From Escherichia coli (lineage in GTDB: Bacteria; Pseudomonadota; Gammaproteobacteria; Enterobacterales; Enterobacteriaceae), in the NCBI RefSeq assembly GCF_030013205.1, contig NZ_CP122648.1: 64,000 bases of DNA; one strand, 5' to 3'. Each line of letters starts with the position of its first letter. Within the stretch, counting starts at the first letter, position 1. The position numbers and the translations under genes are program-made. Of this stretch, positions 59,409 through 59,464 are shown piece by piece. Below the pieces are notes generated by a model. The model saw only the letters and a program-made list of their open reading frames with translations. It made no database searches and was not told the DNA's origin.

Positions 59409-59464
59409 GATGCCTGACACGTCTTATCAGGCTACAACCGTGTCGCATCCGACAAGGCATCAGA
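59409..59464. repeat. REP/BIME-like palindromic unit pair between narU and narZ
   Basis: TGCCTGACACGTCTTATCAGGCTAC and inverted GTGTCGCATCCGACAAGGCATCAG resemble the REP consensus in opposite orientations. Confidence 0.5.

What the first reader, a model, noticed from the sequence alone, without database searches (positions are those of the whole stretch)
59409..59464. REP/BIME palindromes in the narU-narZ spacer
Two oppositely oriented REP-like units sit in the spacer overlapping the extended narZ ORF start, supporting the internal ATG at 59497 as the true start and marking a likely mRNA-stabilising element.
Basis: partly seen in the sequence, partly recalled or inferred. Interest (0 to 1): 0.2.

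Follow-up and report, generated by a model that had tools for sequence, protein, structure and literature searches.

The report
Decayed REP/BIME remnant between narU and narZ
The small palindrome between the nitrate-transporter gene narU and the nitrate-reductase gene narZ is the eroded leftover of a very common E. coli repeat (a REP pair, or BIME); it is ordinary, differs between strains, and probably does little.

Summary
The 94-nt narU-narZ spacer (59403-59496) does contain REP-derived sequence, but not two REP units. Unit 1 (59411-59435, TGCCTGA-CA-CGTCTTATCAGGC-TAC) is a z2-type REP. It has lost about 11 internal nt and one C next to CTAC, leaving a 6-bp stem (-8.2 kcal/mol, against about -21 for intact REPs). 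It is the best match in the 64-kb window to a REP profile (E 0.013). "Unit 2" (59440-59454) is not significant alone (E 6.8). It is a deletion scar: orthologous spacers in E. albertii and two other Escherichia lineages carry a full y-type REP there, and E. whittamii carries a full unit 1. The ancestor was therefore a BIME-2-like pair (z2, 15-nt linker, y) that decayed differently in each lineage. E. coli has two alleles: this one in 1,865 of 5,426 complete genomes, and a K-12 allele 13 nt shorter, with almost no REP left, in 3,548. ATG 59497 is confirmed as the narZ start. A role in mRNA stabilisation is untested and looks weak. The predicted RNA fold uses an invariant outer inverted repeat (59405-59415 / 59455-59466) instead of the REP hairpin. 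In this strain narZ is also truncated by an IS91 insertion. Verdict: ordinary, low interest.

The parts
59400..59402 (+). narU stop codon (TAA)
   Evidence: RefSeq narU of strain N3 ends at the equivalent base.
59405..59415 (+). Left arm of the outer inverted repeat, GATCGATGCCT. It overlaps the head (TGCCT) of unit 1. ATCGA resembles the short head-to-head linker (ACCGA / ACCAA) that precedes z2 REPs in MG1655 BIME-2s.
   Evidence: Folds. The arm is invariant in 6 Escherichia spacers apart from one 1-nt gap. Linker comparison.
59411..59435 (+). Unit 1: a truncated z2-type REP in iREP orientation on the + strand (GTAG orientation on the - strand), TGCCTGA-CA-CGTCTTATCAGGC-TAC. About 11 internal nt are missing, plus one C of GGCCTAC.
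   Evidence: nhmmer E 0.013, the best hit in the window, and a unique 13-mer. Alignment to z2. Full-length orthologue in E. whittamii L039.
59412..59432 (+). Residual hairpin of unit 1: stem GCCTGA (59412-59417) / TCAGGC (59427-59432), 9-nt loop, -8.2 kcal/mol.
59432..59435 (+). [quoted passage not shown] It now overlaps the last stem base because one C was lost.
   Evidence: Canonical copies. Role of GTAG from PMC3333891.
59436..59450 (+). AACCGTGTCGCATCC, the homologue of the 15-nt tail-to-tail linker between the z2 and y REPs (E. albertii AACGGTGTCGCCTCC; compare the MG1655 lamB-malM linker AACGGCTGTCAAAT).
59444..59454 (+). Deletion scar, CGCATCCGACA. This is the junction left when about 31 nt (nearly the whole y REP, GTAGGTCGGATAAGG...) were lost between the repeated CGC(A/C)TCCG motifs.
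   Evidence: Full y REP in E. albertii L005, L022 and L010. Alone E 6.8. SNPs within E. coli, CGCGTCC and CGCACCC.
59455..59466 (+). Right arm of the outer inverted repeat, AGGCATCAGATC. It pairs with 59405-59415, with A59462 bulged.
59485..59489 (+). Shine-Dalgarno sequence AGGAG of narZ.
   Evidence: Conserved in all Escherichia and Citrobacter spacers.
59497..59499 (+). True narZ start codon (MSKLLDRFRYF...).
59374..59496 (+). Spurious 5' extension of the narZ ORF. It overlaps the narU 3' end and the REP remnant.
   Evidence: In-frame stops in K-12 and E. albertii.

Best explanation
The feature is the eroded remnant of a BIME-2-type element. In the ancestral Escherichia narU-narZ spacer this was a z2 REP and a y REP in opposite orientation, tail to tail, separated by a 15-nt linker. 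In E. coli nearly all of the y REP was lost by a roughly 31-nt deletion between two CGCNTCCG repeats, which left only a junction scar (59444-59454). The z2 REP then decayed in two ways. In the allele carried by this window, an 11-nt internal deletion (consistent with slippage between the two CTGA repeats of a canonical z2) plus loss of one C left a 25-nt stub with a 6-bp stem. In the K-12 allele, 13 more nt are missing, so only TGCCTGATG...TAC remains. Shown here: the family assignment, the orthologous full-length copies, and the two-allele polymorphism. Inferred: the order and mechanism of the deletions. Also inferred: the remnant is now an immobile, essentially neutral relic. It lacks the stem mismatch and the normal GTAG spacing needed by the REP transposase TnpA-REP, and its hairpin is too weak to act as a classical REP stabiliser. 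Any remaining RNA structure comes from the 11-bp outer inverted repeat, not from the REP palindrome.
For: Unit 1 is the best REP-profile hit in the window (E 0.013), and its 13-mer CGTCTTATCAGGC is diagnostic of z2 REPs (canonical copies). E. whittamii has an intact 37-nt z2-like REP at the same position, between identical flanks (-21.0 kcal/mol). E. albertii, L022 and L010 have an intact y REP (GTAGGTCGGATAAGGC...CGCATCCGACA) where the window has only CGCATCCGACA. The left flank, the order of the REPs and the 15-nt linker match MG1655 BIME-2s at malE-malF and lamB-malM. Among complete E. coli genomes, 1,865 carry the window allele and 3,548 the shorter K-12 allele, which together account for essentially all of them. 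None carries a full REP here. There are SNPs inside the scar within the window allele. The hairpin has -8.2 kcal/mol against -20 to -21 for intact REPs, and a REP-hairpin pairing probability of 0.02. Two Escherichia lineages have uncompensated changes in the outer stem, and no pair covaries. TnpA-REP requires both GTAG and the stem mismatch (PMC3333891).
Against: Both arms of the outer inverted repeat are almost invariant across six Escherichia lineages, while the interior has suffered at least four different indels. The whole element still folds to -20.8 kcal/mol (z -2.6). It starts 2-9 nt after the narU stop codon, a position where REPs have been reported to affect translation of the upstream gene. 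So a residual RNA-level function is not excluded. No expression or RNA 3'-end data were examined. The ancestral state is inferred from only six lineages, and REPs can be homogenised by gene conversion. The intact copies in E. whittamii or E. albertii could therefore be secondary.
Confidence: 0.8

Rival explanations
1. The element is a functional intercistronic RNA structure. The hairpin closed by the outer inverted repeat (59405-59415 / 59455-59466) blocks 3'-to-5' exonucleases and stabilises the upstream narU segment of the narUZYWV transcript, or serves as a processing site.
For: narUZYWV is treated as one operon driven from upstream of narU (PMC11417348), so the spacer is transcribed. The composite fold is -20.8 kcal/mol, z -2.6, with 0.98 probability for the outer stem. 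The outer arms are nearly invariant in six Escherichia lineages. REP hairpins are established stabilisers (Newbury 1987, Khemici 2004, as cited in PMC12306157).
Against: There is no covariation, and the two changes that exist in the arms are uncompensated. In the 101-nt context the fold is not better than shuffles (z -1.5). The interior is an indel hotspot with two common alleles, so loop size and energy are not conserved. A ribosome terminating at 59400-59402 would cover the left arm. No 3'-end or half-life data were examined.
Confidence: 0.12
2. The structure, lying within 15 nt of the narU stop codon, stalls terminating ribosomes and lowers NarU synthesis through trans-translation. This is the mechanism reported for REPs close to stop codons.
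For: The hairpin stem starts 9 nt after the stop codon, and the outer stem 2 nt after it. REPs fewer than 16 nt from a stop codon are reported to down-regulate translation (Liang et al. 2015, as summarised in PMC12306157).
Against: The reported effect concerns intact, stable REP hairpins. Here the REP hairpin is only -8.2 kcal/mol. The K-12 allele lacks it entirely, yet keeps the same outer stem. The primary paper could not be read, so its stability requirements were not checked. Nothing was tested experimentally.
Confidence: 0.06
3. The palindromes are chance matches with no relation to REPs.
For: the repeat finder found no inverted repeat in the spacer. Unit 2 alone is not significant (E 6.8). 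Rfam has nothing here.
Against: There is a unique exact 13-mer shared with z2 REPs and a profile hit at E 0.013. Intact REPs lie at the orthologous positions in four other Escherichia lineages.
Confidence: 0.01
4. The ORF from ATG 59374 is a genuine N-terminally extended NarZ, and the palindrome lies in coding sequence.
For: In this allele there is an open frame from 59374 with no stop before 59497.
Against: A 13-nt indel separates the E. coli alleles. K-12 and E. albertii have in-frame stops. The extension overlaps narU. A Shine-Dalgarno sequence serves ATG 59497. RefSeq uses that start.
Confidence: 0.01

Closest known systems
E. coli z2-type REP within a BIME-2 (for example the malE-malF and lamB-malM intergenic BIMEs of K-12)
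   Same: It shares the head TGCCTGA, the 3' arm CGTCTTATCAGGC and the CTAC tail. It is extragenic and intercistronic, just after a stop codon. In orthologous Escherichia spacers it is partnered with an inverted y REP across a 14-15-nt tail-to-tail linker that begins AACGG/AACCG.
   Different: In the window the REP is 25 nt, not 37. It lacks the inner stem, the mismatch bubble and the loop, has lost one base next to CTAC, and its y partner is reduced to a scar. The hairpin has -8.2 against about -21 kcal/mol.
REP mRNA stabilisers and REP-dependent translation control (Newbury 1987; Khemici and Carpousis 2004; Liang, Rudd and Deutscher 2015, all as cited in PMC12306157)
   Same: It lies in the transcribed spacer of an operon, 2-9 nt downstream of a stop codon.
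   Different: Those effects were shown for intact, stable REP hairpins. Here the predicted RNA structure is a different, long-range stem, and the REP hairpin has a probability of 0.02. There is no experimental evidence for this locus.
REP/BIME occupancy of the same spacer in Citrobacter and Klebsiella
   Same: Full REP pairs sit between the narU-like transporter gene and the narZ-like reductase gene (L015, L017, L027, L034, L018, L046).
   Different: The arrangement is the opposite one (GTAG...z, then y...CTAC, head to head), with different flanks. These are therefore separate acquisitions or rearrangements, not the same insertion.

Membership tests
E. coli REP (y/z1/z2 families) | Sequence match to the REP consensus | tested here: met
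   Unit 1: nhmmer E 0.013, the best hit in the 64-kb window, covering model positions 16-31, and an exact z2 13-mer. The head TGCCTGA is also canonical. Unit 2: E 6.8, not met on its own.
E. coli REP (y/z1/z2 families) | Imperfect palindrome of 30-40 nt with an internal mismatch in the stem (PMC3333891) | tested here: not met
   The unit is 25 nt, with a 6-bp perfect stem and a 9-nt loop. The inner stem and mismatch region are deleted. Intact orthologue in E. whittamii.
E. coli REP (y/z1/z2 families) | Conserved GTAG (CTAC on the other strand) at the foot of the palindrome | tested here: inconclusive
   CTAC is present at 59432-59435. But GGCCTAC has become GGCTAC, so the tetranucleotide overlaps the stem by one base.
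E. coli REP (y/z1/z2 families) | Extragenic location | tested here: met
   It lies between the narU stop (59402) and the narZ ATG (59497).
BIME (BIME-2) | Two REPs in inverse orientation (z2 and y) separated by a short linker | tested here: not met
   In the window only a scar of the y REP remains. The feature is met collectively by the orthologous spacers: E. whittamii has the full z2, and E. albertii, L022 and L010 have the full y.
BIME (BIME-2) | Binding by DNA gyrase, or mobilisation and cleavage by TnpA-REP | not testable with these tools
   TnpA-REP requires GTAG and the stem mismatch (PMC3333891). The mismatch is absent here, so activity is inferred to be lost.
REP mRNA stabiliser | Stable stem-loop in the transcript that impedes 3' exonucleases | tested here: inconclusive
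   The REP hairpin is -8.2 kcal/mol, with probability 0.02. The alternative outer stem gives -20.8 kcal/mol for the element. mRNA decay was not measured.

The most novel reading that the evidence does not exclude
The nearly invariant 11-bp outer inverted repeat (GATCGATGCCT / AGGCATCAGATC) encloses an interior that changes by indels in every Escherichia lineage. It could be a selected intercistronic RNA clamp, for example a processing or stability determinant that sets the NarU:NarZ expression ratio. The REP debris would then be tolerated in its loop, and the two E. coli alleles would differ in loop size and hence in strength.
Probability: 0.08. Interest if true: 0.3.

Novelty: already known. 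Interest (0 to 1): 0.08.

Why it matters
It matters little beyond annotation. It confirms the narZ start codon and explains a spurious upstream ORF extension. It adds one well-resolved example of how REP/BIME palindromes decay, through repeat-mediated and intra-palindrome deletions that leave two stable alleles in E. coli. The remnant should be annotated as a REP remnant, not as a functional REP. For this strain any regulatory role towards nitrate reductase Z is moot, because narZ is truncated by an IS91 insertion and narYWV are deleted.

Tried and rejected
Rfam at a permissive E-value over 58900-60000 gave nothing relevant.

The repeat finder (seed 6, minimum 8) did not report the palindromes, because the exact arms are too short.

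Ungapped search for the REP tail CTTATCMGGCCTAC with up to 2 mismatches gave 0 hits in the window, because the copy here has a 1-nt deletion.

I tried to use REP annotation of MG1655 as evidence. The RefSeq copy held here carries no REP features at all, even at malE-malF, so the absence of annotation at narU-narZ says nothing.

The RepRanger supplements (PMC12306157) hold no per-locus list. Liang et al. 2015 and Liang and Deutscher 2016 are not held.

A synthetic 'ancestral' spacer with a full z2 REP was searched against 5,426 E. coli genomes. No genome matched better than the window allele (95.1%), so no E. coli retains the full REP.

A local alignment that reads unit 1 as a nearly full-length z2 with a mutated 5' arm scored well. 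I rejected it in favour of the internal-deletion reading, because that reading keeps the canonical head TGCCTGA (TGCCTGATG in K-12 and E. albertii) and needs far fewer events.

A covariation test of the outer stem was uninformative: 10 of 11 pairs never vary.

The promoter and terminator scan found no sigma-70-like promoter or terminator in the spacer. Its two terminator-like hits lie inside narU.

A weak hairpin that sequesters the Shine-Dalgarno sequence (59474-59490, -6 kcal/mol) is not better than shuffles in context.

Full report
**What is at the coordinates.**
narU ends with TAA at 59400-59402, and narZ starts at ATG 59497. The 94-nt spacer between them reads:

GAGATCGA TGCCTGA CA CGTCTTATCAGGC TAC AACCGTGTCGCATCCGACA AGGCATCAGATC CCAATTCATTCCTGGAGCAGGAGTTATGTC

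The locus is chromosomal E. coli. A 301-nt query around the spacer hits 5,402 of 5,426 complete genomes, always between narU and narZ.

**Test against the REP families.**
I took 12 canonical REPs (z2 and y types) from a 45-kb stretch of MG1655. One example is the malE-malF z2 copy, TGCCTGATGCGACGCTGACGCGTCTTATCAGGCCTAC.

- Window 59411-59435 shares the head TGCCTGA, the whole 3' arm CGTCTTATCAGGC and the tail TAC with z2.
- It lacks about 11 nt of the interior and one C of GGCCTAC.
- The 13-mer CGTCTTATCAGGC is unique in the window and is present in 4 of 4 z2 copies of the sample.
- A profile HMM of the 12 REPs gives its best hit of the whole window here (E 0.013).
- The second 'unit' (minus strand TGTCGGATGCGACAC, 59440-59454) matches only the first 10-13 nt of a REP, at E 6.8.

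So one truncated REP is statistically supported, and the second unit is not supported on sequence alone.

**Comparative evidence.**
An N-terminal narZ coding pattern retrieved 62 loci from species-representative genomes. I extracted the upstream spacers and aligned the Escherichia ones.

| Lineage | Unit 1 (z-type REP) | Unit 2 (y REP) |
|---|---|---|
| E. whittamii (L039) | intact 37 nt, TGCCTGGTAAGACGCTCGCTCGTCTTATCAGGCCTAC, -21.0 kcal/mol | deleted, as in E. coli |
| E. albertii (L005) | decayed | intact, GTAGGTCGGATAAGGC...CGCATCCGACA |
| L022 and L010 (two further lineages, deposited as E. coli but representing separate GTDB species) | decayed | intact y REP |
| Window allele | 25-nt stub | scar CGCATCCGACA only |

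In E. whittamii the flanks are identical to the window's. In the lineages with an intact y REP, it sits where the window has only CGCATCCGACA, preceded by the 15-nt linker AACGGTGTCGCCTCC.

The order is ATCGA, z2 REP, 15-nt linker starting AACGG/AACCG, then y REP. This is the order seen in the MG1655 BIME-2s at malE-malF and lamB-malM (nomenclature from PMC3333891).

The simplest history is an ancestral BIME-2-like pair that decayed separately in each lineage:

- Loss of the y REP in E. coli and E. whittamii fits a roughly 31-nt deletion between the repeated CGC(A/C)TCCG motifs.
- The 11-nt loss inside unit 1 fits slippage between the two CTGA repeats of a canonical z2.

Both mechanisms are inferred.

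**Polymorphism within E. coli.**
MG1655 has an 81-nt spacer in which unit 1 is reduced to TGCCTGATG-TAC, 13 nt shorter than the window.

- Allele-specific queries find the window allele in 1,865 genomes and the K-12 allele in 3,548 of 5,426.
- A synthetic spacer with a complete z2 REP finds nothing better than the window allele, so no E. coli keeps the intact REP.
- Within the window allele, sampled copies carry SNPs in the scar: CGCGTCC and CGCACCC.

**Structure and likely function.**
As RNA (the spacer lies inside the narUZYWV operon; PMC11417348), the residual REP hairpin has 6 bp and -8.2 kcal/mol. Intact REPs have -20 to -21 kcal/mol.

In the ensemble of the 68-nt element, the REP hairpin pair G59412-C59432 has probability 0.02. 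The competing long-range pair G59412-C59458 has 0.98. The predicted fold is therefore a stem between GATCGATGCCT (59405-59415) and AGGCATCAGATC (59455-59466). It has -20.8 kcal/mol and z -2.6 for the element alone, but z about -1.5 in the 101-103-nt context.

Across six Escherichia spacers, 10 of the 11 outer pairs never vary and none covaries. The two changes that occur (one mismatch, one gap) are uncompensated. This neither supports nor excludes selection on the structure.

The element begins 2-9 nt after the narU stop codon, a position where intact REPs are reported to reduce translation of the upstream gene. The primary paper was not available.

The stem mismatch is lost and the GTAG spacing is altered, and both are needed by TnpA-REP. 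The remnant is therefore probably immobile.

My best reading is a largely neutral relic (confidence about 0.8). A residual structural role for the outer stem is the main rival (about 0.1).

**The start codon.**

- RefSeq uses the equivalent ATG in strain N3 and in MG1655.
- AGGAG lies 7 nt upstream.
- The in-frame extension back to ATG 59374 overlaps narU and exists only in some alleles. K-12 and E. albertii have in-frame stops 23 and 38 codons upstream.
- Among the 62 enterobacterial loci, conservation begins at the ATG.

**Context in this genome.**
narZ is not intact. Similarity to narZ of N3 and K-12 stops at window position 62296. The sequence continues into an IS91-family element whose transposase (62703-63935) carries Y2_Tnp and Zn_Tnp_IS91 domains.

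The same junction occurs in only 6 of 5,426 complete genomes, all of them pig isolates, five named ETEC. In ETEC1748, PGAP calls narZ a pseudogene lacking its C-terminus. There the IS91 element is followed by an RHS fragment, yncH, yncG and ansP, so the 3' end of narZ and narYWV are gone. Any effect of the spacer on nitrate reductase Z is therefore irrelevant in this strain.

**Comparison with what is known, and verdict.**
The element works like, and descends from, the E. coli REP/BIME-2 family. As it stands, it fails two defining features of a REP (length and imperfect palindrome) and the defining feature of a BIME (two REPs). It is best filed as a REP/BIME remnant. This is an ordinary, already-known kind of sequence in the best-studied bacterium. 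Interest is low.

Noticed in passing
window 62297-64000 (junction near 62296-62301; ORFs 62383-62748 and 62703-63935): narZ is truncated after about 933 codons by an IS91-family element (Y2_Tnp and Zn_Tnp_IS91 transposase). The same junction is found in only 6 of 5,426 complete E. coli genomes, all pig isolates (five named ETEC). In those genomes the IS is followed by an RHS fragment, yncH, yncG and ansP, so the 3' end of narZ and narYWV are deleted.
   Followed up: yes
L007, L008, L020, L023-L025, L037, L044, L045, L047, L052, L056, L059, L060, L064, L065 and others, about 60 nt upstream of the reductase ATG: In 26 of the 62 loci (including Kluyvera, Raoultella, Enterobacter, Serratia rubidaea and Pantoea), the transporter-reductase spacer carries no REP. 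Most of them carry a conserved box GAGCAGTGTAAC, then a GC-rich hairpin (ACGGGG...CCCCGT), then CAGGAG and the ATG. Of 5 predicted pairs, 2 show compensatory changes. No Rfam family reaches its gathering score. Escherichia and Citrobacter read GGAGCAGGAG, as if the hairpin were absent. This may be an undescribed leader element of narG/narZ-type operons.
   Followed up: partly
window 43157-43205: A second REP-like remnant...AACGCATCAGGCAATCACGCGCCTGACGCGTCATCCGGCAACG..., is the second-best hit of the REP profile (E 0.21). The 64-kb window contains no intact REP at all, whereas the 45-kb MG1655 sample has 12.
   Followed up: no
L015, L017, L027, L034 (Citrobacter); L018, L046, L048, L050 (Klebsiella): The orthologous spacer in Citrobacter and Klebsiella holds full REPs or BIMEs. 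In the Citrobacter loci the arrangement is the opposite one (GTAG...z, then y...CTAC, head to head). This intercistronic site has therefore been occupied by REPs more than once.
   Followed up: partly
L010 (deposited as E. coli SCPM-O-B-8794), upstream of the spacer: The sequence 5' of GATCGATGC is not the narU 3' end. It is a z1-like REP fragment (ATAAGCGTAACGCATCAGAC), which suggests that narU is rearranged or lost in that lineage.
   Followed up: no
window 59474-59490: A small hairpin, AUUCCUG-GAG-CAGGAGU, would sequester the narZ Shine-Dalgarno sequence. It has -6 kcal/mol alone and is not better than shuffles in context. The sequence is conserved in Escherichia spacers.
   Followed up: partly
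L026 (MAG labelled Bacillota) and L028 (MAG labelled Citrobacter sp.): These two metagenome-assembled genomes carry spacers identical to the E. coli K-12 allele and the window allele respectively. The likely cause is E. coli contigs mis-binned into the MAGs.
   Followed up: no
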